From the NCBI GenBank assembly GCA_964016885.1, contig CAXHJY010000426.1, forward strand, positions 1 through 64,000: a DNA stretch of 64,000 nucleotides. Direction: 5' to 3'. Shown here in pieces: positions 22,195-62,844 of this stretch; the stretch's first letter is position 1; each line of letters opens with the position of its first letter. The notes below the pieces were generated by a model, which saw only the letters and a program-made list of their open reading frames with translations, was not told where the DNA came from and made no database searches. The stretch comes from Eledone cirrhosa (lineage: Eukaryota). Made by a program: the position numbers and the translations under genes.

Positions 22195-24052
22195 ATTGTA
22201 GAAATGAAGCTTTCGTGCACTGGTGAACAGCAGAGTATAAATGAACTGGAAGAGAAACTGGGTATAAGAGGGGTCAGATGTTGTGTGTAGGAGGAGACTG
22301 CATAGATATGGACATGTGATGCGAATGATGGATGACAGCTGTATAAAAAGGTGCAGGGTGCACAAAGTTGTTGGAAACAATGGAAGAGGAAAACCCAGGA
22401 AGACCTGGGATGAGGTGATAAAAGCTGACTTTGCACAATTGCCCCTCTCAAAGGTGATGACACAGGATTGAGATATTTGGTGTTATGCAGTAATACAGAA
22501 GACCTACCTTCCCATGTGCACAGGTTGAAGCATACATCTAATATGCACCACCTCAACCACTATCTCCACCTCCCCTTCCACACCATATCACCCCACCCTT
22601 CACCCACACTTTTATATTACCCCCACCCCAGCCATGATAAAAAGCTCACGACCCACACTATAAAGTAGTCTACACACTGTAACGTGGCCATGTAGGTGTC
22701 ACAACAAAAAGTACTCAGTACACACTGTAAAGTGGTCATGTAGGTGTCACAACAAAAAGTACCCAGTACACATTGTAAAGTGGTCATGTAGGTGTCACAA
22801 CAAAAAGTACCCAGTACACATTGTAAAGTGATCATGTAGGTGTCACAACAAAAAGTACCCAGGACACATTGTAAAGTGGTCATGTAGGTGTCATAACAAA
22901 AAGTACCCAGTACACACTGTAAAGTGGTCATGTAGGTGTCACAACAAAAAGTACCCAGTACACACTGTAAAGTGGTCATGTAGGTGTCACAACAAAAAGT
23001 ACCCAGGACACATTGTAAAGTGGTCATGTAGGTGTCATGACAAAAAGCACCCAATACACACTGTAAAGTGGTCATGTAGGTGTCATAACAAAAAGTATCA
23101 GGTACACACTGTAAAGTGGTCATGTAGGTGTCACAACAAAAAGTACCCAGTACACACTGTAAAGTGGTCATGTAGGTGTCACAACAAAAAGTACCCAGTA
23201 CACACTGTAAAGTGGTCATGTAGGTGTCATGACAAAAAGCACCCAATACACACTGTAAAGTGGTCATATAGGTGTCATGACAAAAAGCACCCAATACACA
23301 CTGTAAAGTGGTCATGTAGGTGTCATAACAAAAAGTATCCAGTACACACTGTAAAGTGGTCATGTAGGTGTCACAACAAAATGTACCCAGTACACACTGT
23401 AAAGTGGTCATGTAGGTGTCACAACAAAAAGTACCCAGTACACATTGTAAAGTGGTCATGTAGGTGTCTTGACAAAAAGCACCCAATACACACTGTAAAG
23501 TGGTCATGTAGGTGTCATGACAAAAAGTACCCAGTACACACTGTAAAGTGGTCATGTAGGTGTCACAACAAAAAGTACCCAGTACACACTGTAAAGTGGT
23601 CATGTAGGTGTCACAACAAAAAGTACCCAGTACACACTGTAAAGTGGTCATGTAGGTGTCACAACAAAAAGTACTCAGTACACACTGTAAAGTGGTCATG
23701 TAGGTGTCACGACAAAAAGTACCCAATACACACTGTAAAGTGGTCATGTAGGTGTCATAACAAAAAGTATCCAGTACACACTGTAAAGTGGTCATGTAGG
23801 TGTCACACCAAAAGTACCCAATACACACCGTAAAGTGGTCATGTAGGTGTCACACCAAAAGTACCCAATACACACCGTAAAGTGGTCATGTAGGTGTCAT
23901 AACAAAATGTACCCAGTACACACTGTAAAGAGGTCATGTAGGTGTCACAACAAAAAGTATTGTATGAGCAAGACAGTATCCCCTGATCTGACATGCCTCA
24001 AATGGGACAACCTGTCTAACCCATGTTAGTTTGGTTAAACAATGATGATGAT
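22195..24052 (+). mobile_element. 5'-truncated RTE family B copy whose 3' UTR contains the expanded 48-bp array
   Basis: RRLHRYGHVMRM..GKPRKTW coding end, C-rich UTR, array, then AACCCATG..GTTAAAC(AT)GATGATG tail. Confidence 0.88.
22670..23960. repeat. 48-bp tandem array, ~27 copies
   Basis: Unit CACACTGTAAAGTGGTCATGTAGGTGTCACAACAAAAAGTACCCAGTA; gives the 16-aa periodicity in the ORF track. Confidence 0.97.
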
Positions 24053-27977: not shown

Positions 27978-28990
27978 TGATCAGTTCAGACCAAGGAAAC
28001 AATGTTTCCATTGGTCTTTCCATTGTTGATACTATCTGTCAGTCACAACTACTGGCAGTAGAAAGGAGCTGATCATCAGATCAGACCAAGGAAACAATGT
28101 TTCTATTTGTCTTTCTATTGTTGATACTATCTGCCAGACACAACTCCTGGCAGTAGAAAGGAGCTGATCATCAGATCAGACCAGGGAAACAATGTTTCTA
28201 TTGGTCTTTCCATTACTGATACTATCTGTCAGTCACAACTACTGGCAGTAGAAAGGAGCTGATCATCAGATCAGACCAAGGAAACAATGTTTCTATTGGT
28301 CTTTCCATTACTGATACTATCTGTCAGTCACAACTCCTGGCAGTAGAAAGGAGCTGATCATCAGATCAGACCAAGGAAACAATGTTTCTATTGGTATTTC
28401 CATTACTGATACAATCTGTCAGTCACAACTCCTGGCAGAAGAAAGGAGCTGATCATCAGATCAGACCAAAGAAACAATGTTTCTATTGGTCTTTCCATTA
28501 CTGATACTATCTGTCAGTCACAACTACTGACAGAAGAAAGGAGCTGATCATCAGATCTGACCAAGGAAACAATGTTTCTATTGGTCTTTCTATTGTTGAT
28601 ACTATCTGTCAGTCACAACTACTGGCAGTAGAAAGGAGCTGATCATCAGATCAGACCAAGGAAACAATGTTTCTATTGGTCTTTCCATTACTGATACTAT
28701 CTGTCAGTCACAACTACTAGCAGTAGAAAGGAGCTGATCATCAGATCAGACCAAGGAAACAATGTTTCTATTGGTCTTTCTATTGTTGATACTATCTGTC
28801 AGTCACAACTCCTGACAGAAGAAAGGAGCTGATCATCAGATCAGACCAAGGAAACAATGTTTCTATTGGTCTTTCCATTACTGATACTATCTGTCAGTCA
28901 CAACTACTGATAGAAGGAGCTGATCATCAGGTCAGACCAAAGAAACAATGTTTCCATTGTATATACTATCTATCAGTGACAAGTCCTGAG
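27978..28990. repeat. 95-bp tandem array, ~10.5 copies
   Basis: Unit TGATCATCAGATCAGACCAAGGAAACAATGTTTCTATTGGTCTTTCCATTACTGATACTATCTGTCAGTCACAACTACTGGCAGTAGAAAGGAGC. Confidence 0.96.
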
Positions 28991-31136: not shown

Positions 31137-34100
31137 ACAGAACCTACAGTAAACTGCTATGTAAGGGTATTGAGTGGAATATGTAGGACCAAGACAGAGA
31201 TATATCTACAATGGTAGACCACAGAACCTACATTAAACAGTGTAATATGTAGGACCAAGACATAGATATAGCTACAGTTGTAGACCACAGAACCTACATT
31301 AAACAGTGGAATATGTAGGACCAAGATATAGATATACCTACAGTGGTAGACAACACAGAACCTACATTAAACAGTGGAATATGTAGGACCAGGACAGAGA
31401 TATATCTACATTAGTAGACCACACAGAACCTACATTAAACAGTGGAATATGTAGGACCAAGACAGAGATATATCTACAATGGTAGACCACAGAACCTACA
31501 TTAAACAGTGTAATATGTAGGACCAAGACAGAGATATATCTACATTAGTAGACCACACAGAACCTACATTAAACAGTGGAATATGTAGGACCAAGACAGA
31601 GATATACCTACAGTGGTAGACCACACAGAACCTACATTAAACAGTGGAATATGTAGGACTAAGACAGATATACCTACACTGGTAGACCACACAGAACCTA
31701 CATTAAACAGTGGAATATGTAGGACCAAGACAGAGATATACCTACAGTGGTAGACCACAGAACCTACATTAAACAGTGGAATATGTAGGACCAAGACAGA
31801 GATATACCTACAGTGGTAGACCACAGAACCTACATTAAACAGTGGAATATGTAGGACCAAGACAGAGATATACCTACATTAGTAGACCACACAGAACCTA
31901 CATTAAACAGTGGAATATGTAGGACCAAGACAGATATATACCTACATTGGTAGACCACAGAACCTACATTAAACAGTGGAATATGTAGGACCAAGATATA
32001 GATATAGCTACATTGGTAGACCACACAGAACTTACATTAAACAGTGGAATATGTAGGACCAAGATATAGATATACCTACATTGGTAGACCACACAGAGCC
32101 TACATTAAACAGTGGAATATGTAGGACCAAGGCAGAGATATACCTACAGTGGTAGACCACACAGAACCTACATTAAACAGTGGAATATGTAGGACCAAGA
32201 CAGAGATATACCTACAGTGGTAGACCACAGAACCTACATTAAACAGTGGAATATGTAGGACCAAGACAGAGATAAACCTACAGTGGTAGACCACACAGAA
32301 CCTACATTAAACAGTGGAATATGTAGGACCAAGACATAGATATATCTACATTGGTAGACCACACAGAACCTACATTAAACAGGGGAATATGTAGGACAAA
32401 GACAGAGATATACCTACAGTGGTAGACCACACAGAGCCCTCATTAAACAGTGGAATATGTAGGACCAAGACAGAGATATACCTACATTAGTAGACCACAC
32501 AGAACCTACATTAAACAGTGGAATATGTAGGACCAAGACATAGATATACCTAGATTGGTAGACCACACAGAACCTACATTAAACAGTGGAATATGTAGGA
32601 CAAAGACAGAGATATACCTACAGTGGTAGACCACAGAACCTACATTAAACAGTGGAATATGTAGGACAAAGACAGAGATATACCTACAGTGGTAGACCAC
32701 ACAGAACCTATATTAAACAGTGGAATATGTAGGACCAAGACAGATATACCTACAGTGGTAGACCACAGAACCTACATTAAACAGTGGAATATGTAGGACC
32801 AAGATATAGATATACCTACATTGGTAGACCACACAGAGCCTACATTAAACAGTGGAATATGTAGGAACAAGACAGAGATATACCTACAGTGGTAGACCAC
32901 AGAACCTACATTAAACAGTGGAATATGTAGGACCAAGACATAGATATACCTACAGTGGTAGACCACACAGAACCTACATTAAACAGTGGAACATGTAGGA
33001 CCAAGACATAGATATACCTACATTGGTAGACCACACAGAACCTACATTAAACAGTGGAATATGTAGGACCAAGACAGAGATATATCTACATTGGTAGACC
33101 ACACAGAACCTACATTAAACAGTGGAATATGTAGGACCAAGACAGAGATATACCTACATTGGTAGACCACACAGAACCTACATTAAACAGTGGAATATGT
33201 AGGACCAAGACATAGATATATCTACATTGGTACACCACAGAACCTACATTAAACAGTGGAATATGTAGGACCAAGATATAGATATACCTACAGTGGTAGA
33301 CCACACAGAACCTACATTAAACAGTGGAATATGTAGGACAAAGACATAGATATAGCTACATTGGTAGACCACAGAACCTACATTAAACAGTGAAATATGT
33401 AGGACCAAGACAGAGATATACCTACATTGGTAGACCACAGAACCTACATTAAACAGTGGAATATGTAGGACCAAGACAGATATACCTACAGTGGTAGACC
33501 ACAGAACCTACATTAAACAGTGGAATATGTAGGACCAAGACAGATATACCTACAGTGGTAGACCACACAGAACCTACATTAAACAGTGGAATATGTAGGA
33601 CCAAGACAGAGATATACCTACATTGGTAGACCACACAGAACCTACATTAAACAGTGGAATATGTAGGACCAAGACAGAAATATATCTACAATGGTAGACC
33701 ACAGAACCTACATTAAACAGTGGAATATGTAGGACCAAGACATAGATATACCTACATTGGTAGACCACACAGAACCTACATTAAACAGTGGAATATGTAG
33801 GACCAAGACAGAGATATATCTACATTGGTAGACCACAGAACCTACATTAAACAGTGGAATATGTAGGACCAAGACATAGATACATCTACATTGGTAGACC
33901 ACACAGAACCTACATTAAACAGTGGAATATGTAGGACCAAGACATAGATATACCTAGATTGGTAGACCACACAGAACCTACATTAAACAGTGGAATATGT
34001 AGGACAAAGACAGAGATATACCTACAGTGGTAGACCACAGAACCTACATTAAACAGTGGAATATGTAGGACAAAGACAGAGATATATCTACATTGGTAGA

Positions 34101-35897
34101 CCACACAGAACCTACATTAAACAGTGGAATATGTAGGACCAAGACATAGATATACCTAGATTGGTAGACCACACAGAACCTACATTAAACAGTGGAATAT
34201 GTAGGACCAAGACAGAGATATACCTACAGTGGTAGACCACAGAACCTACATTAAACAGTGGAATATGTAGGACAAAGACAGAGATATACCTACATTGGTA
34301 GACCACAGAACCTACATTAAACAGTGGAATATGTAGGACCAAGACATAGATATATCTACATTGGTACACCACAGAACCTACATTAAACAGTGGAATATGT
34401 AGGACCAAGATATAGATATACCTACAGTGGTAGACCACACAGAACCTACATTAAACAGTGGAATATGTAGGACAAAGACATAGATATAGCTACATTGGTA
34501 GACCACAGAACCTACATTAAACAGTGAAATATGTAGGACCAAGACAGAGATATACCTACATTGGTAGACCACAGAACCTACATTAAACAGTGGAATATGT
34601 AGGACCAAGACAGATATACCTACAGTGGTAGACCACAGAACCTACATTAAACAGTGGAATATGTAGGACCAAGACAGATATACCTACAGTGGTAGACCAC
34701 ACAGAACCTACATTAAACAGTGGAATATGTAGGACCAAGACAGAGATATACCTACATTGGTAGACCACACAGAACCTACATTAAACAGTGGAATATGTAG
34801 GACCAAGACAGAAATATATCTACAATGGTAGACCACAGAACCTACATTAAACAGTGGAATATGTAGGACCAAGACATAGATATACCTACATTGGTAGACC
34901 ACACAGAACCTACATTAAACAGTGGAATATGTAGGACCAAGACAGAGATATATCTACATTGGTAGACCACAGAACCTACATTAAACAGTGGAATATGTAG
35001 GACCAAGACATAGATACATCTACATTGGTAGACCACACAGAACCTACATTAAACAGTGGAATATGTAGGACCAAGACATAGATATATCTACATTGGTAGA
35101 CCACACAGAACCTACATTAAACAGTAGAATATGTAGGACCATGACAGAGATATCTACATTGGTAGACCACACAGAGCCCTCATTAAACAGTGGAATATGT
35201 AGGACCAAGACAGAGATATACCTACATTAGTAGACCACACAGAACCTACATTAAACAGTGGAATATGTAGGACCAAGACATAGATATACCTAGATTGGTA
35301 GACCACACAGAACCTACATTAAACAGTGGAATATGTAGGACAAAAACAGAGATATATTACAGTGGTAGACCACAGAACCTACATTAAACAGTGGAATATG
35401 TAGGACAAAGACAGAGATATACCTACAGTGGTAGACCACACAGAACCTATATTAAACAGTGGAATATGTAGGACCAAGACAGATATACCTACAGTGGTAG
35501 ACCACAGAACCTACATTAAACAGTGGAATATGTAGGACCAAGACAGAGATATATCTACATTGGTAGACCACACAGAACCTACATTAAACAGTGGAATATG
35601 TAGGACCAAGACATAGATATACCTAGATTGGTAGACCACACAGAACCTACATTAAACAGTGGAATATGTAGGACCAAGACAGAGATATACCTACAGTGGT
35701 AGACCACAGAACCTACATTAAACAGTGGAATATGTAGGACAAAGACAGAGATATACCTACAGTGGTAGACCACAGAACCTACATTAAACAGTGGAATATG
35801 TAGGACCAAGACATAGATATACCTACATTGGTAGACCACACAGAACCTACATTAAACAGTGGAATATGTAGGACCAAGACATAGATATACCTACATT
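31137..35897. repeat. 64-68 bp tandem satellite, ~70 copies, with higher-order duplications
   Basis: Unit AGAACCTACATTAAACAGTGGAATATGTAGGACCAAGACAGAGATATACCTACAGTGGTAGACCAC(AC). Confidence 0.97.
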
Positions 35898-39609: not shown

Positions 39610-42600
39610 ATAATATTAATAAATGGAAAATATCTTTATAAAACCATATTTATTTTATTATACACATTTAAGTACGCTTTCATCAGATAAAATATATTTG
39701 GTGTTAAGATAATGACATATCTTCATGTGAACTTAATGGTATAAGTCCAGTGAGGATAGTGAATAGAAAGGTTCAACACTCAAGGGATATATGCTAATGA
39801 GGATACCATTAAACCTGAAAAAAGCCATTAAATTTAGACGCTTGATAAATTTCAAAAATCCTTATTTATATTGTTTATGGGTTTGCTATTATAGGTTGAA
39901 AAATTATTTTAGAGTTAGTTATAGATATATTCACCCAAAAATATATAGAAGGAATATTTCGAAGGAATCACATAATTATACTTAATTATTTTTTTTATTT
40001 TTTAATATATATTTTAAGAATATGGATATATTTATAATATTTAGATGAGAATTATAATGAATTGTATTAAATTATAAACTATTAATTCATTAAAGCAATT
40101 ACAACAATATAATATGTGAATGAATATACTCCGTATTTACATATATATACAAGTGCATTTATTTTTTTGCATATATTTTAATACTATGAATGTAGTTATA
40201 AATATAATGTATTGTAGTATATTATAAGACATTATTAAGTACCAGTAATGTACTGGGTAACTGCTGGCCTTGTGACTAAAATAGAAACAATTATTATATA
40301 TCGTTATTTAAAAATAAATAATTATTTACTACATAAATGATAATGTGTGAATATAGATCTTATTTAAGTATATATATATTTATAAATGAGCATAGGAGAG
40401 ATCAAGTAATTATATGTATTTTATACATATACTTTAAGAATGTGAAACTAATTATATTTTTTAAGTAAAAATGTACAGTATTGTGGTATAATCTATTATT
40501 GTATATGGTTAGTAATATAATATTTAAACAGTTATGCAAGTTGAAATGTATTTTTTTTTTTTTCATTTTACATCCGCTTTTCCCTGCTTGCAAGGGTGGG
40601 ACGGGAACTGATTCTGGCTTGATTTCTACAGCTGCATGCTCTTCCTAACACCAACCTCATTTACAGTGAGTGCTAGGTACTTTTTTTCCGTGGCGCCTAC
40701 ACTTTACAGTGTGGGCTGGGTGCTTTTTTTGCTGTGACACCTCCATGACCACTTTGCAGTGGAATGATAGGGACCCCAGTCCCTATCATCTGATTTTTAC
40801 AGCTGAGTAAACTGGAGCAATGTGAAATAAAGTGTCTTGCTCAAGGAAACAACACATCACCCAGTCTGAGAATTGAACTCACAACCTTTCGATTGCAAGG
40901 CCAATGCTCTAACCACTAAGCCATGTGCCTCTATTGTATTGTATATGTGAATTGTAAACGAAGAAATATTTGGGTAGATAACTCTAATATTTAGTATTTT
41001 AAAGAATGCTTACGATAGATATTTAATAATATATTGTTTCATCTAATGTTTACCATAATTATTAATTATAATTTATATAATATTTTTTTACATTATATAA
41101 GAAATATTTCTCTGTATTAAATTTTAAAATATTTAAAAATATTTGTATTTATATTGTACATAGGCAACTTATATAGACCATATTGTAGTAGGTTCTATAA
41201 ATTATAAATATTGTGAAATGTTCTGGAGAATCGATGCAAACAAGAATTAAATATTTCATTTTTTTTGTTAATAATATTACCAGGGTTGGTAATTATATGA
41301 AAGATTTCTTCAATACAGACATGACAAATTCGTGAGAATGCCATATTTTGGTAAACCGGCACATTCGATGATATTTTTCTCCAAGAGATTGAATAGTCAA
41401 TGTTATTGTCTTTTAAAGACCAAATTAGTTGTGACAGTGAGGTTGAGAATTTTTTATCCAATCATTTGAAAGTATGTTTATGATTATACCAACGCTCCTT
41501 AAATTTTGAAGAAGTTGCTCCTATATAGTTATAGTGCCTATCCATAGTTTTTATGGGATATTTGTATACTAAATTCTATCAAGGCAATTATTCTGTAAAG
41601 GGCATAAGATGTTATTCCTGCAATTACATTTCCTTATATTGTTATTTAAAGATACCATATTATTATTCATGTATTCGCTATAATTATTATTATTATTATT
41701 CGTAATGATATTAATTATATTGTTATTTGAGTTTACTTCAGTTAGGTTTAATTTTAAATTCCTATTATTAATTCTAGCAATATTCTGAGCTACATTCATA
41801 GTTGCAGAGTAAGAGAGCTTGACTGTATGTCTGTTAAAAATGGAGTGATACTTATGGGACTTAGGAAAACATTTATCTAGAGCCAAATTATATTTCTAGT
41901 TCTGGCTTTTCTATTTGATTTATTATTTTGGTTAATTTGTTTAAATTTATTATTACTATAATAAACTTTAGGAGGTTGGTTTTTACTATTCCTATCTATG
42001 TAGTTAATTTTATTATTGTATCCAGCTCTGTGTAGTGCGTCATTATAATATTCTGCTTTGTTATCAAATATATTTTTATTAGCTGAGAGTCTAGATATTC
42101 TTAGCTGGACACTATTAGCTATAGATTTTTTAACGTTTTTAGGGTGGTTTGAGTAGAAGCTGACATAATTTAGGTTTCATTAATGTTATGGAACAGGTAA
42201 TATAGGCCGGAGTTAAGGTTTAATGTAACATCTAAGAAATTAACTATTTTATTATTGCCTTCTATTTCTAACTTAAGGTCGTAATTATTAAAGAAGTCTA
42301 TAATAATTTTCTTTTTTCTGCTATCACTATTGTTGTTTATCTACTATGAATAATGCCATGTCACGATACAAGCCTCCAGCAATTTCCAGTATTTTCCTAT
42401 GTAAAAAGTTAAGAGTGAAGATGCCAACGAGGTCTGTAACCTGAGCTGAGTCCAAAGAACCCATTGTAATATCAAAATTCTACAGTCTATCAGCTCTAGT
42501 CCAGAGATCGTTGTTAAATTCAATAAGAGTTTTTCGTGCAGTTAATATAATGTTTATTTCTTCGCTAGATAAGTTAGTATGCTTGGATGCGTATATTAGT

Positions 42601-42620
42601 GCTATATTAAGTAAATTAGG
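39610..42620 (-). mobile_element. Naiad-type Penelope-like element: decayed RT/GIY-YIG at 41195-42620, long AT-rich 3' region ending in a hammerhead remnant (39646-39696)
   Basis: MGSLDSAQVTDLVG, GLYRD, NFLDVTLNL, CNCRNNILCPLQNNCL, YIGATS, CHVCIEE, SCLH; homologous to 58651-62330. Confidence 0.88.
40562..40930 (-). mobile_element. tRNA-derived SINE with RTE-derived tail
   Basis: A box TGGCTTAGTGG, B box GAGTTCAATTC, CCTTGAGCAAGACACTT central domain, 48-bp-type modules and RTE-A terminus; second copy at 57250-57592. Confidence 0.88.
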
Positions 42621-42621
42621 A

Positions 42622-43230
42622 GATCATCATCATCATTTTACGTCCGCTTTTCCCTGCTTGCAAGGGTGGGATGGGTCTTATTCAGCACAGCATCTCGCCA
42701 CTTGTCACAGCCCTTCGTCATCCCCACCGTGAGCTTCAATGATCTGAGGTCTGCTCTCAGTCTTCTCTCCTGCACACCAAAACTTATCCCTCTTATACAC
42801 AGTTTCTCTCTCAACACATCTATGGTCATTCACGCACACTGACATTGCACATCCAACGGAGCATACTTGCCTCATTTCTCTCCAGCCGTCGCATATCTTC
42901 TGCAGTTGCTGCCCATGTCACACTACTATGCAGTATTGCACATCTCACACAGGCATCATATAACTGGCCTTTCGTATGCAGGGAGAAACCCTTCTTTGTC
43001 AACAGAGGAAGCAGATTCCTAAACTTCTTCCAACCCGTCCTTATTCTAGATACTATGGCCTCGGAACACCCCTCTACCATGCTAATCTGATCACCTAGGT
43101 ACTGGAAGCTATCAACCACTTCTATAGAACCCACCTGCATTTGAAAGATGTGTCTATCACTGCGATTACTACTGTCAACTTTCCCTGTACATCTACTGCA
43201 TACGTAGTTTTCCCTACTGTCTCACTACAT
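42622..43230 (-). mobile_element. RTE family A 3' fragment with internal deletion
   Basis: MQVGSIEVVDSFQYLG...ERRLR|ADLRSLK...REKRT*, then (TGA)n. Confidence 0.92.
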
Positions 43231-43271
43231 CGCTTGTGTACCCAAGATATATATACATATATATATATAGA

Positions 43272-43388
43272 AACCAGTAAGACCCCGACAGCTGAGCTCA
43301 AGCCGTTTCGACGGCTAATTCTGGACTGAATTAGTCCAGAATTAACCGTCGAAACGGCTTGAGCTCAGCTGTCGGGGTCTTACTGGTT
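43272..43388. repeat. Near-perfect 117-bp palindrome containing the 3' half of a hammerhead
   Basis: AACCAGTAAGACCCCGACAGCTGAGCTCAAGCCGTTTCGACGGCTAATTCTGGACT, short loop, then reverse complement with one mismatch. Confidence 0.95.
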
Positions 43389-43519
43389 CCTATTACCCAC
43401 TCTACTACCTCAAGTATTGAGTACTTTGGTGCGTTATGGTCCACCTGGTTCCTTACCACATTTCCTTCGTTATATATATATATATATATGTAGATAAATC
43501 TACCAAAAGTTTACGGTAG

Positions 43520-43561
<42 letters not shown>

Positions 43562-43676
43562 ATATATATATGTATATTTCGTATCTCCAAAGAAATACGG
43601 TTTTAGGAAGCCGTAGCTATGCAAACACCGGGGGGGGGGGGCTAACGCCCTCTGGTGATGTCTAGCAGAAGCAAGG

Positions 43677-43729
43677 GGGACAACCGTCTATGCATTTCAG
43701 GCTTAACTGGCCTTCGTCAGGACGGTCCC
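43677..43729 (-). ncRNA. Minimal type I hammerhead ribozyme, intact core
   Basis: GGGA-CCGTC-CTGACGA-AGGC-CAGTTAA-GCCT-GAAA-TGCA-TA|GACGG-TTG-TCCC; palindromic stem III ATGCAT. Confidence 0.88.
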
Positions 43730-43989
43730 TCCCACCGCTTGCGACTACTGGACTAGAAGACAAGCGAGAATATATAGTTTCCTCGTCTGTGTAAATGATG
43801 TGATTAATCTCATTTGCATATGAAGCTGCATAAGTTGGCTCAACTTATAATGAAAAAGAAATAGGATTTCACTTCAAGCATAATATAAATATATATATAT
43901 ATATATAATATTAATAATAACATTCAATTCGTTTGCAATTATGCAAACAAGCCTGTCAGTAGAATGAACCCTTCATTCTTGCTCTTGTG

Positions 43990-44069
43990 TTGGCATGCGA
44001 ACAGAACTGCAGACACTAATGTTTCTGGGTATCACCCTTCATCAGTACAGCTCACTGTTCACCTGCCAA
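43990..44069 (-). ncRNA. Type I hammerhead ribozyme with extended stem I
   Basis: TTGGCA..GAACAGT-GAGCTGTA-CTGATGA-A-GGGT-GAT-ACCC-A-GAAA-CA-TTAG-TG-TC|TGCAGTTC-TGTTC..TGCCAA. Confidence 0.85.
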
Positions 44070-44446
44070 ACTGTCAGAGCTAGTGAAAATATATGCTATT
44101 TTCAAAAATAGTGACTGATTGGCCTGATTTGCATATTAGCAGACTGGCTGATCAGTCAGATCTGCATATTAGCAGATGCACTAATCAGCCAGATTTGCAT
44201 ATCAGCAGTCTGGCCAGTCAGTTTCCTGTATATGAGCGATAAATGGCCAGCTTTGCCAAATTCAAATAAAAAAGAAAATTTCACTCTACATAGCTGAATA
44301 CAATAAATATAATCTGAGTTTTTCGAATATTAATAATAACATTTGATTTGTTTGCATTTATGCAAACAAGCCTCAATATTATAGCCCTGTCAGTAGAATG
44401 AACACTTCATTCTTGCTCTTGTGTTGGCATGAAGTGTTCATTCTAC

Positions 44447-46077
44447 TTTTACAAACAGCCTCAATGACAGAGGCCAGAGACATCGTTATGTTAGCAGGGG
44501 ATTTCAATGGACATGTTGGACAGCTCCAGGATGGATACACTGGGGTACATGGAGGGCACGGTTATGGCTCAAGAAATGAAGGAGTGGGACTTCTTGAATT
44601 TTGTGATGCAAATGCATTAACCATTTGCAACACTAACTTCCAGAAGCCTACCAACCACCTAATAACCTACAAATCAGGCGAGCACATAAGCCAGATTGAC
44701 TTCTGCTAGTTAGACAGCGAGACAGACAGATGGTGTCAAATACTAAGGCAAACCCTGGGGAAGAATGTACCCCACAGCATAGGTTAGTCGTTAGTGACAT
44801 CTCAGTAAGTATGAGAAAGAATAAGACATACAGGAAGGTGTGGAAGAAAAGGTCTGGAAGCTAAAAGACCTTTCATTAAAATATAAATTTAGCAAAGCCC
44901 TTCAAGACAAGTATGATGAAAAAGAAGACGATTTAGAGTTGTATGATGATAACTGGAATTTCTTACGTGACAACTTACTGCAGGCTACTGAAGAAACTTG
45001 TGGTTGGGGGCTGAGCTTCAACCAGACAGTGAGTGACCTGGTGGTGGAACACCACAGTAGATAGGGCCATTAGAGACAAAAGACTGGCATGGAAGGCTTG
45101 GAAAAATGGTGGGAGTAGGGAAGGATACACAGCTGCTAGGAGAGAAGCTAGAGGTCAAGTGTACTTAGCACGCAGGGAGGCTGAGAGTAGGAGGTTTGCC
45201 AATGTTCTGGGACAGGAAGATCAGAGACGTGCGGTCTTCTGCATTGCAAGGCAGTGTGTCAGTGAAAATCCGGATGTTATTGGAGATAAATGGTCCCACC
45301 CTTGCAAGCAAGGAAAAGCAGACGTACAATGATGATGATGATGATGAAATGTGTCCGGAATGATGCTGGTGTACTTAGTGTCATAAATGATCAAAAAAAG
45401 GAGGCCTGGAAATGTCACTATGAGAGACTGATGAATGTGGAGAATGAATGGGACAGGAGAGAAATTACCCCCAGTAGACCCAACAGAGGGACCAGCTATT
45501 GAGATTGACGAATATAGGTTACAAGAGGCAATTAAAGAAGTGAAGAATGGTAAGGCTGCTGGACCGTCGAGGATAGTTGCTGAGATGCTGAAGGCATCAG
45601 GAGAAGTAGGCACTAAACTGGTTGCAGGCATCATCAATCAAGCTATATATGGTGGTGTCATACCCAAAGACTGGTGCAGCAGTATTCTCATAAATTGCTA
45701 CAAAGGAGCAATTATAAGCTGATGGATCAGGTTATGAAAGTAGCAGAGAGAATATTAGCGCATCTGATTAGAGAAAGGGTCAAATTAGATGAGATGCAGT
45801 TTGGTTTTGTGCCTCGGGAAAGTACAACAGATGCCCTCTTCTTAGTGAGGCAACTACAAGAGAAGTTCTTAGAGAGGAATAAGCCACTATACTTAACCTT
45901 TGTTGACCTAGAGAAGGCCTTTTATAGAGTACCTCGATCTGTCATCTGGTGGTCCCAAAGGAAACTAAGTGTAGAGGAATGGCTTGTGAGGACAGTGCAA
46001 GCTATGTACGGGGTGATGTCAGTAAAGTGAGGGTAGGAATGGAGTTTAGTGAGGAATTCCAGATACAAGTAGGTGTA
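44447..46077 (+). mobile_element. RTE family A fragment (APE to RT), decayed
   Basis: [36 protein letters not shown]. Confidence 0.92.
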
Positions 46078-51234: not shown

Positions 51235-51930
51235 AACTTTTTCTATATTTATATATATATATTTATACATTTAAATATATATATAAATTTAACTTTTTCA
51301 TATCAGGCGAAAAACCTCATCTTTTATTTATTTCCCAGCCGATTTCCTTGAAATTTGCAGCACACATTAGTTAGTCCCCTCGCATTACTGTGGATGAAAA
51401 GAATTTCCAATTCCGTTAATGGTTTCTAGGAAATTTACGAATTAGCATTGGGCATTACATTCCATTTTCAATATAAACACTACTTAACACTGTATAATAT
51501 TTGTTTAAAAATGTGCTTTATTTAACAGAGAACACAACACTTTCTTTTAAGCAGGACCATTTTGGGGGAATTGAGGAAATGAGGAGGACCTTAAAATTTT
51601 TGTCGGCTCCCTGTTGACGCTTCGTGCTTTCATCATGCTATGTTATTGACACCGTAAAACCCACGTCTGTGCTACTTCTACTAAGACCCATTTTGTTGCA
51701 CCTACACTGCAACTTTCTTCAGCTATTCTCTGGTTATTGATGATGGTCATCATGCATTGCTGGAGGTTATATTTTTTTGACTCAAGCAGGCCGATAGCCA
51801 TCGAATATATGTGTTGCTATATATATATAAAAATATATGTATATATATATATAAATATATGTGTATATATATATATATATATAAATATATGTGTATATAT
51901 ATATGTATATATATATATATATATGTATAT

Positions 51931-54900
51931 AGGTAGATCTGCTGAAATAGCGGAGATGCTGGAGAGAAGGCAGGTGGATGTGTGCTGCGTGCAGGTGGAT
52001 GTGTGCTGCGTGCAAGAGGTGAGATGGAGAGGTGCCTCTGCGAGACTAGTCGTAGGCAAGCGTCTTAGCTATAAGCTATTCTGGGTAGGTAAGGATGATG
52101 GGTTAGGGGGAGTAGGCATTTTCCTGGCTGAGAAATGGATCAATAAGACAATAGAGGTAGTTCGAGTTAGTAATCGAATAATTAAGCTTAGATTAGTTGT
52201 AGGTAGGAGACTACTGACAATCATCTCGGTCTATGCTCCCCAAGCAGGCCTAGGCAAAGATGAGAAAGACTGCTTTTATGAGCAACTTTTGCAAACAACC
52301 ACAATGACAGAGGACGGAGACATCGTTATGCTAGCAGGAGACTTCAATGGTCATGTTGGACAGCTCCAGGATGGTTACACTGGGGTACATGGTGGGCACG
52401 GTTACGGTTCAAGAAATGAAGAAGGAGTGAGACTTCTTGAATTTTGTGATGCAAGTACATTGACTATTTGCAACACAAACTTCCAGAAACCTGCCAATCA
52501 CCTAATAACCTACAAATCTGGTGAGCACATAAGCCAGATTGACTTCCTGCTAGTTAGGCAGCGGGACAGGCAGATAGTGTCTAATACCAAGGCATACCCT
52601 GGGGAAGAATGTACCCCACAGCATAGGTTAGTTGTTAGTGATATCTCAGTAAGCAAGAGATGGAATGAGACATATAGGAAGGTGTGGAGAAGAAAGGTCT
52701 GGAAGCTAAAAGACCTTTCACTAAAATTCAAATTTAGGAAAGCCCTTCAAGATGTATATGACGAAAAAGAAGACGATTTAGAGACGTATGACATAGATAA
52801 TAACTGGAAGTTCTTACGTGACAACTTGCTGAAGGCTACTGATGAAACCTGTGGCTGGAGCAGAGCTCCAACCAGACAGAGAGTGACCTGGTGGTGGAAC
52901 AGCAGTGTAGATAAGGCTATTAGAGACAAAAGACTAGCATGGAAGGCTTGGAATAAGGGTGGGAGTAGGGAAGAATATACAGCCACTAAGAGAGAAGCTA
53001 GACGTCAGGTGTACTTAGCACGCAGGGAGGCAGAGAGTAGGAGGTTTGCCAATGTTCTGCGACGGGAAGATCAGAGGCGTGCGGTGTTCCACATTGCAAG
53101 GCAGTGTGTCAATGCAAATCAGGATGTTGTTGGTGATAAATGTGTCCGGGATGATGCCGGTGTACTTAGTGTCACGAATGACCAGAAAAAGGAGGCCTGG
53201 AAATGTCATTATGAGAGACTGATGAATGTGGAGAACGAATGGGAGAGAGAGAAATTACCCTTGGTAGATCCGACAGTGGGACCAGCTATTGAGATTGACG
53301 AATATAGGGTCCAAGAGGCGATTAGGGAAATGAAAAATGGTAAGGCGGCCGGACCATCGGGAATAGTTGCTGAGATGCTGAAGGCATCAGGGGACGTAGG
53401 CACTAAACTGGTTGCACGCATAATCAATCAGGCTATATATGGTGGTGTCATACCCAAAGACTGGTGCAGCAGTATTCTCATAAATTGCTACAAAGGTAAA
53501 GGGGATGCTTTGGAGAGGAGCAATTATAGGGGTATAAAACTGATAGATCAGGTTATGAAAGTGGCAGAAAGGATTTTAGCACAACTAATTAGAGAAAGGG
53601 TCAAACTAGATGAGATGCAGTTTGGTTTTGTGCCTGGGAAGAGTACAACAGATGCCCTCTTCTTGGTGAGACAAATGCAAGAGAGGTTCTTAGAGAAGAA
53701 TAAGCCACTATACTTAGCCTTTGTTGACCTAGAGAAGGCCTTTGATAGGGTACCCCGATCTGTCATCTGGTGGTCCCTAAGGAAGCTGGGTGTTGAGGAA
53801 TGGCTTGTAAGGACAGTGCAAACTTTGTACAGAGGTACTCTCAGTAAAGTCAGGGTAGGAATGGAGTTTAGTGAGGAATTCCAGATACAAGTAGAAGTAC
53901 ATCAGGGTTCGGTCCTCAGCCCGCTCTTGTTCATTATAGTCCTCCAAGCCATAACAGAGGAGTTTAAGACTGGCTGTCCATGGGAACTTCTCTATGCTGA
54001 CGATCTGGCTCTTATGGCAGAATCAGTAGAGGAGCTAGAGAATAAATTCCGGCTATGGAAACAGCAGTTGGAAGCAAGAGGACTGAGAGTAAATCTAGCT
54101 AAGACAAAAGTGTTGATGAGTAGAAAAGAGGACAAAACCCTGATTCCGTCAGGGAAATGGCCATGTTCGATATGCAGAAAAGGAACTGGCATAAATTCTA
54201 TAAAATGCACACAATGTAGGTCCTGGGTACACAAGAGATGTAGCGGGATAGCAGGCAAACTAACAGGTAGGGAGAAATATGTATGCAGTAGATGTACAGG
54301 GAAATTAGACAGTAGAAGTCGCACTGATAGACACATTTTTCAAATGCGAGAGGGCGCTATAGAAGTGGTGGATAGCTTCCGGTACCTAGGAGATCAGATT
54401 AGCATGGGAGGAGGGTGTTCCGAGGCCATAGTATCTAGAATAAGGACGGGTTGGAAGAAGTTTAGGGAGCAGCTTCCTCTGTTGACGAAGAAGGGTTTCT
54501 CCCTGCGTACGAAAGGCCGGTTGTATGATGCCTGTGTGAGGAGCGCGATGCTGCATGGTAGTGAGACATGGGCAGCTACCGCAGAAGATATGCGACGGCT
54601 GGAGAGAAATGAGGCAAGCATGCTCCGTTGGATGTGCAGTGTAAATGTGCGTGAACGACCCAGCATAAATGTGTTGAGAGAGAAACTGTGTCTGAGAGGG
54701 ATAGAATGTAGTGTACGGGAGAGGAGACTGAGGTGGTATGGACATGTGATGCGCATGGAGGATGACCGATGGGTGAAGAAGTGCCAGGAAATGCCAGTTG
54801 AAGGAAGACGTGGTAGAGGTAGACCACGAAAAACATGGGTGGAGGTGGTGAGAACAGACCTCAGATCATTGAAGCTCACGGTGGAGATGACGAGGGACCG

Positions 54901-54970
54901 TGACGAGTGGAGAGATGCTGTGCTGAATAAGACCCGTCCCACCCTTGCAAGCAGGGAAAAGCGGACGTAA
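51931..54970 (+). CDS. RTE LINE family A ORF2-type protein (APE endonuclease, RT, PHD-type finger); extreme N-terminus missing
   Basis: About 1010 open codons: [66 protein letters not shown]. The track's first ~65 aa are flank and microsatellite. Confidence 0.93.
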
Positions 54971-54998
54971 AATGATGATGATGATAATGATGATGATG
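51931..54998 (+). mobile_element. Near-full-length young RTE LINE, family A
   Basis: Uninterrupted ORF runs directly into a (TGA)n tail; (TA)n on both sides; 21-bp in-frame duplication at about 51970-52012. Confidence 0.95.
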
Positions 54999-55139
54999 AT
55001 ATATATGTATATATATAAATATATATGTATATATGTATATAAATATGTGGATATATATGTATATATATATATATATATACATATGTGTATATATATATGT
55101 ATATATATATAAATATGTGTATATATATGTATATAAATA

Positions 55140-56925
55140 TATGAAGGTCACGGAAAAAGTAATAGCGCAACTAATCAGAGAGAGAATCGACCTAGATGAA
55201 ATGCAGTTCGGGTTTGTGTCAGGCAAAAGTACCACAGACGCTCTTTTCATAGTACGACAACTACAGGAGAAGTACCTAGCTAAAGGTAAATCCCTCTACT
55301 TAGCTTTTGTCGACTTGGAGAAAGCCTTCGACAGAGTCCCCCGCTCCATTATCTGGTGGGCTCTTAGAAAACTAGGCGTTGACGAATGGCTTGTGAGGGC
55401 TATACAAGCCATGTATAAAGAAACAGTCAGCAAGGTTAGAATTAACAACGAATATAGTGAAGAGTTTAGCGTAAAAGTTGGCGTCCATCAGGGCTCTGTT
55501 CTCAGCCCCCTACTATTTATTATTGCCCTTCAGGCTATAACAGAGGAGTTCAAGACAGGCTGCCCATGGGAACTCCTATACGCAGACGATCTGACACTCA
55601 TAGCGGAATCAATGGCCGAGCTAGAGAAGAAATTCCAAACATGGAAGCACGGCCTAGAGTCAAAAGGACTTAAAACTAACCTGGCTAAGACCAAAGTTCT
55701 AGTTTGTAGGAAAGAAAACAAGGCGGCGGTCCCTTCTGGGAAATGGTCGTGCTCGGTGTGTAGGAAAGGCGTAGGTAGAAACTCCATTTTATGTCCTAAA
55801 TGCAAAGTATGGGTGCATAAAAGATGTAGTGGGATCACAGGTAAGCTAACTAAGAACATAGATTTTACATGTGGCCGGTGTTCTGGTGCAATAAGTAGCA
55901 GCAAGTGCCCACAAAATACTAGCTCTTTCAATTGCGCAGAGGGTTCTATAGAAATAGTGGACAGCTTCCGTTACCTGGGCGATAAAATCAGCAGTGGGGG
56001 AGGGTGCTCTGAAAGTACTGTAGCTAGAGTCAGAACTGGTTGGAAAAAGTTCAGAGAGCTTATACCACTATTAGCTGCTAAAGGGTTCTCCCTAAAAATG
56101 AAAGGCAGGTTGTACGATGCCTGCATACGAACAGCAATGCTGCATGGCAGTGAGACCTGGGCATTGTGTGCAGAGGATATACGCAGACTAGAGAGGAACG
56201 AAGCTTGCATGCTCCGCTGGATGTGTAACAGTAATATACGTGAACGGCAAAGCATAAACGAACTAAGGAAAAAATTAGAGATAAGAGGGATCAGATGTTG
56301 TTTACTCGAGAGAAGGCTACGTTGGTATGGACACGTGATGCGCATGAAAGTCGATAGCTGTATAACAAAGTGCAGGGCAATAAAGATAGACGGTAGTCAC
56401 GGAATAGGCAGACCTAGAAAAACCTGGGACGAGCTGATAAACTCCGACATCACACACTTACACCTCTCCAAGACAATGTCACTGGACCGAGACCTTTGGC
56501 GGTACTCAGTAACAGAGAAGACCCGCCTTACCTAAATATATAGTAAAACCTACTCCAACCAGTAGGCATCTCTAACAAAATACACCCCGTCCTACCACCA
56601 CCACCCCCACCCCATACACACCACCCCGTTCTATGTAAAGTTATGTTGGTGCCGCGCCATAGGCCGAAACAAATGAGATCGTGTAGGTGTCACGACAAAA
56701 AACACACAGTCCACGCTGTAATGTGGCCGTGTAGGCAACACGGTAAAAACCTCCCAGACCCACACTGTAAATGTGGTTGGTGTTAGGAAGGGCATCCAAC
56801 TGTAGAAAACCTGCCAGATAGTCCTATGCGAGCAAGACAATCACTCCTGCCTCAAACTACCCCCGTCCAAACCCATGCAAGCGTGGAACACGGACGTTAA
56901 ACGTTGATGATGATGATGATGATGA
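55140..56925 (+). mobile_element. 5'-truncated RTE LINE, family B; open RT-PHD frame 55141-56535 plus ~390 bp 3' UTR
   Basis: [47 protein letters not shown]; UTR modules; (TGA)n tail. Confidence 0.95.
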
Positions 56926-58650: not shown

Positions 58651-60674
58651 ACAACAAACTACTAATGGATTGAAAACAATATAATATCTATCATCCAAGG
58701 CATCAAATTTAAGAGAAACTTCAAAGGCCAGGACTATTTAAGATGTATTAAGGATAATATTGAAAACTTGGAGATAACAGAGAAAATTTTAGTGAAGTCG
58801 GACAAAATTAATAACCTTTATGGAGTACAAAAGGACATGTATAATGACCTTATATTGAAAGAACTAAGGAAAAAGTACAAGGTAGCAAGTAAGGACGAAC
58901 TTGAAAAACTGAATACAGATGCATCTTGTATAATGCATGAATTAGACATTGAGAATAAAACACAACCCTTCATGCCTAGGAAACCCAAGATCAATATGAA
59001 GGATCACAAAAGAAACTTTGAAAATGATTTACCAGTCAGATTAATTGCACCATCTAAATCTGACCTGGGAAAACTTAGCAAAAATATTCTAGACAGGGTA
59101 ATACAACAAATTATAAACTTACCTAATTTATCTAACTTAAAATTATGGAAAGGGACTAGTGAGGTTATTGATTGGTTTAAAGAAATTAAATATAACTATA
59201 ATAATAAGTTTATTCAGCTGGATATTGCTAACTACTATTCATCTATCACTCCTAATCTACTGAATAAGGCACTAAATTACACATTTAAACATACTGACCT
59301 AACTAGCAATGAAATGCACATTATATTATCGGCAAGGAAAACATTGATAGAATTTAATAACCAACTCTGGACTAGGGCAGATAGAAATAATAATTTCGAC
59401 ATAACTATGGGATCATCAGACTCAGCTCAGGTAACGGACCTTGTGGGCCTATTTATAATTAATTTGTTACATAGAAAAATACCAGGTGTAACCAGAGGAT
59501 TATATCGTGATGACATGCTTTTACTTATAGAAAATAATAGCTGTGAACTAAATAGAAAAAGAAAACAAATTATACAATTTTTTAATTACCTTAATCTAAA
59601 AATAGAAATAGAGAATAACCATAGAATAGTCAATTTTCTTGATGTAACACTAAATCTCAACACATGTCTTCATTATCCATTTCACAAACTAAATGAGAAC
59701 TTGAATTATGTCAACTTTAACTCTAATCACCCCAGATCTGTTAAAAATACTATAGTGAACTCTGTTCAAGAACGAATTTCAAGAATTTCATCTAATAAAA
59801 ATATATTTGATGAAAAAGCGGAGTATTACAACGAAGCGTTAGGTAGAGCTGGATATAGAAATAAAATTAAATACATCGATAATAATAATAATAAGCAAAC
59901 TAACCAAAATAATAACAATTTCAATTACGGTAACAACTTTAACAACTATAATAGAAAACATTACAATAATTCCAAAAGCCGAAAAATAGAACTAGAAATA
60001 TATTATGGTTTGCTCCCCCTTTCTCACTAAATATTAAAACCCCTATTGCTAAACTATTCTTTAAAGCTCTTGACAAATGCTTCCCTAGAACACATAAATA
60101 TTACTCAATTTTTAATAGACACACTATAAAATTAACTTACTCGTCCACCAAAAATTTAGCACAAAATATTAATAGAATTAATAATAGGAATTTAAAACCT
60201 AACCAAAATACCAATAATAACCCAAACAATATTCAATTAAATAACTGTAACTGTAGAAATAAATCTAACTGTCCGTTAAATAACAACTGCTTAGCTACAA
60301 ATGTAGTGTACAATTGTAATGTTAAAACTAATTTAAATTCATTTAACTACGTTGGTTCCACCTCTACAGAATTTAAATTTCGCTTCAATAATCATAAGAA
60401 TTCTTTCACAGATCCAAACAAAAAATCTTCAACTTCGCTATCTAGCCTACTATGGGACCTAAAACGAGATAATATTAAATATTCGATGAATTGGAATATT
60501 ATTTCAAAAGCTACTCCTTTTAATTCCTCTTCAGAAAATTATGATCTTTGTATTGAAGAAATATTCTTTATATTAAAGTCCAAAAATTCCCTTAATCTAA
60601 GGAACAATTTATTCAGTTGCTGCAGACATAGGTTGAACTCAACGTTTAAATATAAATATAAATTTAAAATGTAG
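58651..60674 (+). pseudogene. Naiad-type Penelope-like RT and GIY-YIG ORF, 5'-truncated, frameshift near 59990
   Basis: KSDKINNLY, MKDHK, QLDIANYYSSI, MGSSDSAQVTDLVG, GLYRDD, NFLDVTLNL, CNCRNKSNCPLNNNCL, VVY..YVGST, LCIEE, CRH. Confidence 0.93.
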
Positions 60675-62208
60675 TATAATTAATTAAGTAATTTAGTTAA
60701 TATATGAAACCTGTCGATAAATCATTAGATTCCTTCACCTTTTTCTTTTTAAACTTTCTTCCTAAATATAAACATGGATATAATAAACTACTCTAAAATG
60801 TCTATACTTCCAATGTATTAAATAAAATATACGTAAGATAAATTTCTATACTAAATATAAGGTTATCTGTAGAATCATTGAGTTTTTTAAATCTTTTAAA
60901 TTATTTTTATTTATTTGTTTTGATTCTGATAGCTTCTCATAACTTTCATATGTCTACCCTTTCAATATCTTGATTGAGATATACGTAGGATAAATTTCTA
61001 TAATAAATATATAAAACATATTATTTTAACTTAAGATACTCTATAGTGTTTTAAAGATATTTAATGCTTTGATATTTCTAGTTTTCTTTTGACTATACTG
61101 ATATAGTTGCATTTCCAAAATATATTCCTTTGGTATTTTAAATTTATATCGTTATGCTTATATTTACAAGTTATAATCCTTTAGTAATATATTGATATTT
61201 GATTATCTCTATACAAATGCATAGGTGTGTATTAACATGCATATAAAGTGTTATAGGTTTTTTTTTTTGTGTTTGTATATATGTCTGTATATATACATGA
61301 GCGATGCGGGAGGACGCACGCAAATATTTATTTATACATATGTATGTGTATATATATCTATGTGGGTGAGAGGTATGTTGCAGATATGCATAATATTAAA
61401 TACATGAATGGTAATCATATATATGAGGACATGAATATTAATCTTATATATTTATGTATATATACTGTGAACTTTTTATAACAAGGAATGTATAGCAGTG
61501 ATTAAGAGAAATCATTTACGTTTTGTATGGCTATATTGTTGGCTTGAGTAAACATAATTTCTATTTTCAGGACGTGCGTATATATATGTATGTATATATA
61601 CATATATATTTGTATGTCTTTGCATAAGATACTGATCTCTATACTAAGGGTACATTTTGAACTCAGATTTTGGTATATTGATCTCAAGTTTTTAAACTAA
61701 ACATATGGTCATTATTGAACAATGTTTAATTTCTCATATTATATATCTATGTCCCATTCATGAATATTGATATTTATATTTTTATTATTCATTACATATA
61801 AATTGTTAACTCAACTTAATATGACATGACGTAAAGTTTTCATTGTATCCCCTTCTCTCTATATAGTATTTCTCTCTCTTGAGTTTTTCTATCTGTATGA
61901 TGACTTGATATCTCTCTGTTGCTTTCCTTTGTTTTTCTTATTTCTTCCTTTTTTCTTTCTTTTTTATTTCCTCCTATCTTTATTTATCTCTTTCTTTTCT
62001 CCATACATTTCTCTCTCTCTCCGATATTTTTCCAGGTTTTCTTTCTCTCTCTGTCTTTTTTCTTTTTTTCTTTCTCTCCGTCTTTTTCTAATTGTGCTTA
62101 ACACTATGACTTATTACAATAATATAAACAAATCACTATCTAGACAGCCTCCAAAAGTAATGGTTGCATTCTAAAAGGGTACGTCAAAGCTATTTATAAA
62201 ACTGTTAT

Positions 62209-62284
62209 ATATTGTATTTTGTCTGATGAAGGCACACCATAATTTAATGTGGTATCCCTGAAATATGTATAATGAAATAAATAT
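62209..62284 (+). ncRNA. Hammerhead motif at the 3' end of the Naiad element
   Basis: TATTTTGT-CTGATGA-AGG..ACCA..TGGT..CCT-GAAA-TATGTA-TA|ATGAAATA. Confidence 0.72.
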
Positions 62285-62844
62285 GGTTTTATAAATATAG
62301 TTTCCATTTATTAATATCGTATATCTACTCCAAAAACTTGTCGAGTGCTTTATATCAGTTATAAAAATATTTACTTGTTGTATCCCAACAACTTTAAATA
62401 GAACTTTTGCATATATTTATACATATATATTTATATATATATATATATATACATATATATATTTATACATATATACATACATATATATATTTATACATAT
62501 ATACATATATATTTATATATATATACATATATATTTATATATATATACACATACATATTTATATATATATACATACATATTTATATATATATACATACAT
62601 ATTTATATATATATACATACATACATACATATTTATATATATTTATATATATATACATAAATTAATAAAAACAATGAATAAAAAAAAGAACAAGTTCCTT
62701 ATATTAAAAAAATTAATCATTTTACGATCGTTTCTAGGTTATATACGAGTGTTGGTATGTATATCATATAGATCTATGTATAAATTTTACAAACTATCTG
62801 AGGAAATATACATACCTTCACATATATATGCTGACTTCACAAAT

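What the first reader, a model, noticed from the sequence alone, without database searches (positions are those of the whole stretch)
43270..44070. Three unrelated hammerhead modules packed into 800 bp of non-coding DNA
Seen: two complete minus-strand type I hammerheads (43677-43729, CUGACGA/GAAA, AUA site, palindromic stem III; 43990-44069, CUGAUGA/GAAA, GUC site, long bulged stem I) and a third half-hammerhead in a palindrome (43272-43388). The modules share only the catalytic core, are separated by (TA)n, and have no PLE ORF attached. Established: PLE pseudo-LTRs and retrozymes carry type I hammerheads, and minimal ones with palindromic stem III cleave as dimers. Inference: these are short non-autonomous ribozyme-bearing retroelements of several families. 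A minus-strand transcript cut at both sites would release a ~320-nt RNA (43689-44011) that could circularise.
Basis: partly seen in the sequence, partly recalled or inferred. Interest (0 to 1): 0.72.

Follow-up and report, generated by a model that had tools for sequence, protein, structure and literature searches.

The report
Three Penelope-driven insertions stacked in (TA)n
Three separate, abundant mobile elements sit side by side in one TA-repeat: two small non-coding repeats with a predicted self-cutting RNA (retrozymes) and the stub of an intact Penelope-like jumping gene, whose short copies stop at what is likely its RNA's capped start inside the ribozyme; the proposed 320-base hybrid circle is likely a coincidence.

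Summary
The motifs are real, but they are three separate insertions, not one system. M2 (43564-43885) and M3 (43907-44431) belong to circularly permuted, ORF-less families with units of about 332 and 433-442 nt (at least 636 and 1,265 exact hammerhead matches). They show two fixed 3' ends on (TA)n, 5' inversions and partial tandems, so they fit non-LTR retrozymes. They share a tail motif, so they are not unrelated. M1 (43267-43472) is not a non-autonomous family: it is 142/143 identical to the front end of an intact Hydra-clade Penelope-like element (717 aa, U3-A8 hammerhead). Of 54 M1-type copies, 45 stop 33-49 nt upstream of the cut site, inside loop II; 0 of 23 full-length copies stop there, and near-identical 3.5-kb tandem arrays exist. 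This likely reflects two templates: a capped RNA starting inside the ribozyme, and a circular or multimeric RNA. The M3-M2 hybrid circle has no other copy among those examined and cannot re-form stem I. No RNA data were available; cleavage is untested. The scan reported retrozymes and the capped-start stop before, on other DNA of this genome.

The parts
43267..43327 (-). M1 inverted (short) arm of a Hydra-clade PLE stub; outer end at the first fixed end site (+19 from the hammerhead cut), joined to (TA)n
43331..43472 (+). M1 main arm: 3' half of the PLE hammerhead (stem II 3' strand, GAAA 43351-43354, stem III with palindromic loop, GUC ending at 43373, stem I 3' strand) plus an 80-nt tail; begins at the stop point in loop II (A at 43333, position -41); ends on (TA)n at +99
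   Evidence: 142/143 identical to the front end of intact copy L316; stop point
43489..43520 (.). 32-nt end of a further repeat family, between two TA runs
   Evidence: same start after (TA)n in 3 other loci
43564..43885 (-). M2: about one unit of a ~332-nt retrozyme-type family; 3' end at the first fixed site (+128); ATGCAAAT at 43819-43812
43677..43733 (-). M2 type I hammerhead, predicted cut after 43689, palindromic stem III (predicted to work as a dimer)
43907..44431 (-). M3: about 1.2 units of a 433-442-nt retrozyme-type family (43907-43997 repeated at 44326-44431); ATGCAAAT at 44200-44193 and 44134-44127
43990..44069 (-). M3 type I hammerhead, predicted cut after 44012, with a family-wide A.A mismatch at the base of stem II
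44430..44466 (+). short inverted and rearranged piece of M3 at its 5' junction
   Evidence: read from the sequence

Best explanation
The locus is a pile of three independent insertions in one (TA)n target, all likely made by Penelope-like (PLE) reverse transcriptase-endonucleases. M2 and M3 are likely non-LTR retrozymes: tandem genomic copies would be transcribed, cut to unit length by the hammerhead, likely circularised, and copied by a PLE enzyme that starts at one of two fixed internal sites. M1 is a two-armed stub of an intact Hydra-clade PLE. That element's mRNA likely starts, capped, about 41 nt upstream of the hammerhead cut, inside loop II, so its 5' end carries only half a ribozyme. 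Reverse transcription from the two start sites near that 5' end would run off the cap and give 60-140-nt stubs, while long tandem copies would come from a circular or multimeric RNA with no such end. Shown: families, units, ends, parent ORF, stop point. Inferred: cleavage, circles, cap, the enzyme that moves M2 and M3.
For: Separate families: 2,233, 2,727 and 1,061 first-look candidates; exact patterns 636 (M2), 1,265 (M3), 33,123 (M1 tail), reversed controls 0. Closed units: hammerhead-to-hammerhead spacings of 332, 333, 339 and 433-442 nt. Of 22 insertions per family, M2 3' ends fall at +122 to +136 (9) or +162 to +175 (10) and M3 ends at +141 to +148 (11) or +171 to +180 (7); TA follows in 18 and 16 of 22; 5' inversion in 11 and 11 of 22. 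Two RT start sites bounding a tail are shown in vitro for a PLE (PMC11167929). M1 parent: 717-aa ORF with DKT, CxCX5C, CxxC and CxH motifs; core YTGANRA in 3,552 matches, mostly U3-A8 with variable N7, folding as a hammerhead. Stop point: 45 of 54 main arms end at -33 to -49, 1 at -50 to -83, 6 reach the core; 0 of the 23 ORF-bearing copies that reach this region stop there (Fisher p 1e-12). G precedes the stop base in 20 of 64 non-parental junctions against 2 A, though the parent has T or C there (by eye; p 1e-4, or 0.013 without 8 G's that the other arm could supply). One array holds 4 full 3,531-nt units differing by 0-1 base and starts mid-ORF. Stacking: M1 lies within 1.5 kb of 10 of 44 M2/M3 insertions against 1.5-4.5 expected (two of the 10 look like one duplicated locus).
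Against: No RNA was examined, so cleavage, caps and circles are all unobserved. No compensatory changes were seen within M2 (72 copies) or M3 (62 copies). Pair 10.1-11.1 is broken in all M3 copies and in 11 of 72 M2 copies, so these ribozymes may be weak. About a third of the listed parent cores read CTGANAA (C3 opposite A8, by eye). In the 91-tail sample the extra G is weak: 5 of 29, with 12 T, 10 C and 2 A. Some arms run on to -45 or -47, so the stop is a zone, not one base, and the same bases also read like a 3' splice site and a hairpin loop. In vitro, hammerhead cleavage is not needed for PLE insertion and 8 of 9 Xenopus retrozyme dimers did not cleave (PMC11167929; bioRxiv 10.64898/2026.07.22.740005). 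No coding partner for M2 or M3 was found (4 PLEs compared). Long arrays of M2 or M3 were not seen: 8 and 3 of 22 insertions span one unit or more.
Confidence: 0.7

Rival explanations
1. Same three insertions, but the M1 stop point is a reverse-transcriptase stall or cDNA fold-back at the hairpin in loop II (or an RNA break there), not a capped start; long copies come from linear read-through RNAs.
For: A hairpin is predicted at about -60 to -37; many junctions use microhomology there; ends spread from -33 to -49; both arms carry the same subfamily variant in 47 of 53 cases, the other 6 differing by 1-2 bases, as expected from one template or fold-back.
Against: A sequence-intrinsic stall should also stop full-length copies; 0 of 23 stop there. 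Untemplated G exceeds A at the junction.
Confidence: 0.17
2. M2 and M3 are internally deleted PLE derivatives copied from linear read-through RNA; the hammerheads are passengers and no circles form.
For: Broken 10.1-11.1 pairs; mostly sub-unit copies; PLE insertion in vitro uses uncleaved RNA (PMC11167929).
Against: The true units fold far better than shuffles as circles (z -3.8 and -5.6); copies run through the unit junction, up to about two units; circles are shown for coral, mussel and axolotl retrozymes (PMC7229834).
Confidence: 0.1
3. One reading: the locus is a unit that releases a functional 320-nt circle between the M3 and M2 cuts.
For: Both ribozymes lie on one strand 323 nt apart, so a read-through RNA could be cut twice.
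Against: The junction is private to this locus among those examined (0 of 29 and 0 of 29 best loci; 1 of 44 unselected insertions has both families, about 1.2 kb apart and in opposite orientation). Stem I of the circle is mismatched.
Confidence: 0.03

Closest known systems
Metazoan non-LTR retrozymes (Cervera and de la Pena 2020, PMC7229834, parts 2-3 of 6 read; Li, Clavereau and Pollet 2026, bioRxiv 10.64898/2026.07.22.740005, parts 1-3 of 5 read)
   Same: Non-coding 150-450-bp units with one type I hammerhead, under 50% GC, many copies, monomers and short tandems, PLEs in the same genome; a weak base of stem II has a precedent (U.U in axolotl Amex2).
   Different: M2 and M3 are mostly dispersed partial copies with two fixed 3' ends, 5' inversions and (TA)n targets; expression and circles are not shown here.
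Hydra clade of C-terminal EN+ Penelope-like elements (Craig et al. 2021, PMC8557442; section 11, passages and supplement passages read)
   Same: DKT, CxCX5C linker, CxxC and CxH around E and N, (TA)n targets, inverted 5' copy, tail, hammerhead.
   Different: RWR instead of RWK; 3.5-kb unit (most Hydra are under 3 kb); U3-A8 core with a long loop II rather than a canonical hammerhead; 80-nt tail rather than 30-40; tens of thousands of stubs ending inside the ribozyme.
PLE minimal hammerheads, including the U3-A8 variant of Schistosoma Cercyon (Cervera and de la Pena 2014, PMC4209133, parts 1-2 of 4 read)
   Same: U3-A8 covariation, long helix II, short helix I, palindromic helix III; opposed pairs of motifs from truncated PLEs; circular template proposed for tandems.
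   Different: The parts read do not report truncation at a fixed point in loop II.
Poseidon PAc of Anolis, in vitro (Frangieh et al. 2024, PMC11167929, parts 1-2 of 4 read) and Penelope promoter (Schostak et al. 2008, PMC2377424, passages)
   Same: Two internal RT start sites near the RNA's 5' region; both DNA strands cut and extended; AT-rich targets; a promoter in the pseudo-LTR.
   Different: In D. virilis the start lies 46 nt before an intron that ends at helix I, so upstream of the ribozyme; here it would lie inside loop II.

Membership tests
Type I hammerhead (M2, M3) | CUGANGA and GAAA core, NUH site, three stems | tested here: met
   M3 with A.A at 10.1-11.1
Type I hammerhead (M2, M3) | Covariation in stems | tested here: inconclusive
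   None within families (copies near-identical); stems differ between families yet pair
Type I hammerhead (M2, M3) | Self-cleavage | not testable with these tools
   Needs in vitro transcription
Type I hammerhead (M1 in the window) | Complete core | tested here: not met
   Core absent from the stub; present upstream in the parent as UUGANAA
Non-LTR retrozyme (M2, M3) | Short non-coding unit with one hammerhead, head-to-tail repeats | tested here: met
   Units of 332 and 433-442 nt with direct junctions
Non-LTR retrozyme (M2, M3) | No PLE ORF continuous with the unit | tested here: met
   0 of 25 unselected M2 loci have a PLE protein hit; in M3, hits lie in 5 of 25 loci (3 insertions), outside the element
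Non-LTR retrozyme (M2, M3) | Highly self-paired unit | tested here: met
   Circular MFE z -3.8 and -5.6, one natural unit each
Non-LTR retrozyme (M2, M3) | Expressed as linear and circular RNA | not testable with these tools
   No reads of RNA could be examined
Non-LTR retrozyme (M1) | Closed non-coding unit | tested here: not met
   Continues into a 717-aa ORF
Hydra-clade PLE (parent of M1) | RT plus C-terminal GIY-YIG with DKT, CxCX5C, CxxC and CxH | tested here: met
   Motifs read in P0003 against section 11; Pfam gave no hit for the L191 ORF
Hydra-clade PLE (parent of M1) | RWK motif | tested here: inconclusive
   RWR in P0003
Hydra-clade PLE (parent of M1) | (TA)n target, partial tandems, inverted 5' copy, tail | tested here: met
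Hydra-clade PLE (parent of M1) | Placement in an RT tree | not tested
   No reference PLE proteins in hand

The most novel reading that the evidence does not exclude
A currently active Penelope-like element starts its capped mRNA inside its own hammerhead, splitting the ribozyme so that the mRNA's 5' end cannot self-cleave. The enzyme copies this RNA only into stubs, while productive, multi-unit copies come from hammerhead-made RNA circles by rolling-circle reverse transcription; retrozymes such as M2 and M3 exploit the circle route. The genome records both template classes.
Probability: 0.4. Interest if true: 0.72.

Novelty: new member of a known kind. Interest (0 to 1): 0.42.

Why it matters
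The packing of three ribozymes is ordinary target-site stacking. The value lies in M1's family. How PLEs build pseudo-LTRs and tandems, and what their hammerhead does, are called open in PMC2377424, PMC8557442 and PMC11167929. An intact, young element with a sharp stop in short copies, none in long ones, and near-identical 3.5-kb arrays gives a direct test of the circular-template model of PMC4209133. M2 and M3 add two retrozyme families with PLE insertion marks. I did not find the loop II stop in print: searches were (listings) plus the parts of papers named; subscription papers and Repbase were not searched.

Tried and rejected
No RNA holder listed. Three runs of unknown kind from one sample, contigs only, were laid on the locus; no piece spans it, so they say nothing on the junction or on expression. 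Rfam gave no hammerhead hit, only sub-threshold hairpin matches. A search for a canonical CUGANGA partner of M1 gave 36 matches; the 20 inspected were junction accidents or joins to other families. A DNA search with the M1 tail alone returned nothing because the words are too common. My first idea that M1 is an independent SINE-like half-ribozyme was dropped when long copies appeared. My first clade call, Penelope/Poseidon, was dropped for Hydra. A homology-guided strand jump using the 41 nt between start and cut was considered; it fits the stubs but predicts stops on the second pass too, and 0 of 23 were seen. No clear DPE match downstream of the stop point (by eye; consensus recalled). The +116 to +122 ends printed include the reference's TA run; the true site is +99. 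The idea that ATGCAAAT is part of an snRNA-type promoter, as in newt satellite 2, is recalled; one search did not find a paper for it. No partner PLE for M2 or M3 among 4 compared. Supplements of the bioRxiv paper were not seen and could list related families.

Full report
Observation. The two minus-strand hammerheads and the palindrome are at the stated places. A strict descriptor finds 2 hits in the window and none in 60 shuffles; a looser one adds two plus-strand hammerheads at 62223 and 63187. The palindrome arms are 43267-43327 and 43333-43393. Rfam misses all of them. The window lies in a 3.0-Gb animal genome, between LINE fragments; LINE ORFs further along carry RVT_1 and PHD domains.

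Three families. Each module hits its own family. Exact patterns give lower bounds of 636 M2 hammerheads, 1,265 M3 hammerheads and 33,123 M1 tails, with 0 for the reversed controls. None of the 29 best M2 loci holds M3 and none of the 29 best M3 loci holds M2. Among 44 insertions taken in genome order (50 loci, 6 dropped as second arms of the same insertion), 1 has both families and 10 have M1 within 1.5 kb, against 1.5-4.5 expected for 33,000-100,000 copies (two of the 10 look like one duplicated locus). Shared (TA)n targeting explains the packing.

M2 and M3. In both families the sequence upstream of a copy repeats what lies downstream of the hammerhead, so the units are closed (outputs partly cut). 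Spacings are 332, 333 and 339 nt for M2 and 433-442 nt for M3, with one deleted 353. The window holds about one M2 unit and 1.2 M3 units. In 22 insertions per family, 3' ends cluster at two sites about 40 and 30 nt apart, TA follows in 18 and 16, and half carry an inverted 5' piece; 5' ends are scattered. These are the PLE marks described in PMC8557442 (passages) and the two RT start sites of PMC11167929 (parts 1-2 of 4). One natural unit of each folds as a circle at z -3.8 and -5.6. The units align with each other around the two end sites (score 67; 1 of 500 shuffles) and both have ATGCAAAT after it. No compensatory changes appear within families; the base of stem II is A.A throughout M3 and U.U in 11 of 72 M2 copies. 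They fit the non-LTR retrozymes of PMC7229834 (parts 2-3 of 6) and bioRxiv 10.64898/2026.07.22.740005 (parts 1-3 of 5). Their RNA is untested and their helper element was not found.

The hybrid circle. A read-through RNA cut at 44012 and 43689 would be 323 nt, but its stem I would pair an M2 strand with an M3 strand (-6.6 against -16.9 kcal/mol) and it folds at z -1.7. Only the window spans the junction among 55 matches from the 40 best candidates; the next best reaches 27 nt into the AT-rich M3 end. It could at most be a dead-end product.

M1. Of the first 30 tail matches, 3 run upstream into a 3' UTR and PLE coding sequence. The missing half of the ribozyme is there, with core YTGANRA (3,552 matches, mostly U3-A8, N7 variable). 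PMC4209133 (parts 1-2 of 4) reports this variant in Schistosoma PLEs. Long copies have the same two-armed build as M1, one arm ending at +19 and the other at +99. Intact copies exist: the window's arm matches one at 142 of 143 bases, and the tail continues into the 5' UTR and a 717-aa ORF. Its motifs match the Hydra clade as defined in section 11 of PMC8557442; no tree was made.

The stop point. Of 91 tails in 90 loci taken in genome order, 54 had a scorable main arm: 45 end at -33 to -49, 2 are shorter, 1 ends at -60 and 6 reach the core. The other 37 were shorter or too mutated to anchor. Of 30 top copies bearing the ORF start, 23 pass this region and none stops in it; 2 end at the hammerhead cut (-1 and +2) and 5 end further in. 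Two arrays were read: one has four full 3,531-nt units differing by 0-1 base, starts mid-ORF and ends at the two fixed sites. In the first 100 of 23,345 arms reaching -41, 36 continue with parental sequence; the other 64 have T 30, G 20, C 12 and A 2 at -42, where the parent has mostly T or C (by eye). An untemplated G is what copying a cap gives (established knowledge, recalled), and the context resembles an initiator (consensus recalled). The smaller sample shows only 5 G of 29. The best reading is a capped start inside loop II for the stubs and a template without that end for long copies. A stall at the loop II hairpin is the main rival.

Comparison and novelty. Every part belongs to a known kind: retrozymes, a Hydra-clade PLE, a U3-A8 hammerhead. 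The loop II stop and its absence from long copies were not in the papers I searched or read. Earlier notes of this scan reached the same reading for stubs elsewhere in this genome and for other retrozyme families. I had written the capped-start idea before opening them; they are not independent support, but they gave the Hydra lead. Sequence look-ups for M1, M2 and M3 among earlier findings were empty.

Verdict. Observation partly confirmed, interpretation partly supported. The cluster is ordinary; the family behind M1 offers a good test of PLE mechanism. Interest 0.42.

Noticed in passing
window 58666-62420 (+): 5'-truncated, frameshifted Hydra-type PLE (RT and GIY-YIG) with a 3' UTR and a hammerhead at 62223; a related hammerhead at 63187. 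This fourth family is also frequent beside M1-M3 copies elsewhere.
   Followed up: partly
window 41216-42623 (-) and about 39620-39690: Second PLE fragment (55% to the first), separated from M1 by a LINE piece, with a deleted fourth-family hammerhead downstream; further PLE pieces at 20367-22026 and 4377-4651.
   Followed up: partly
L318-L321 (G000:C1:437.20-437.21 Mb and 91.47-91.49 Mb): Single insertions of about 16 kb holding 4.5 near-identical units of the intact 3.5-kb PLE; many other copies with 784-codon open frames.
   Followed up: yes
L091, L094, L100, L106: M1-type stubs joined to pieces of other hammerhead families, two head-to-head and two directly after a CUGAAGA core, hinting at joins between different templates.
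   Followed up: no
M1 family, +6 to +15 from the cut: A 9-11-nt segment just past stem I varies strongly between subfamilies (19 variants among the arms scored) while its flanks are nearly constant.
   Followed up: partly
window 40862-40925 (-): tRNA-like head (Rfam 29.9 bits), probably a tRNA-derived SINE.
   Followed up: no
window 14455-17335, 22671-23959, 27980-28959, 31173-35897: Tandem arrays with periods of 82, 48, 95 and 68 nt at 93-97% identity.
   Followed up: no
window 51650-56535 (+): LINE ORFs (1,106 and 511 codons) with APE, RT and a PHD finger after the RT.
   Followed up: no
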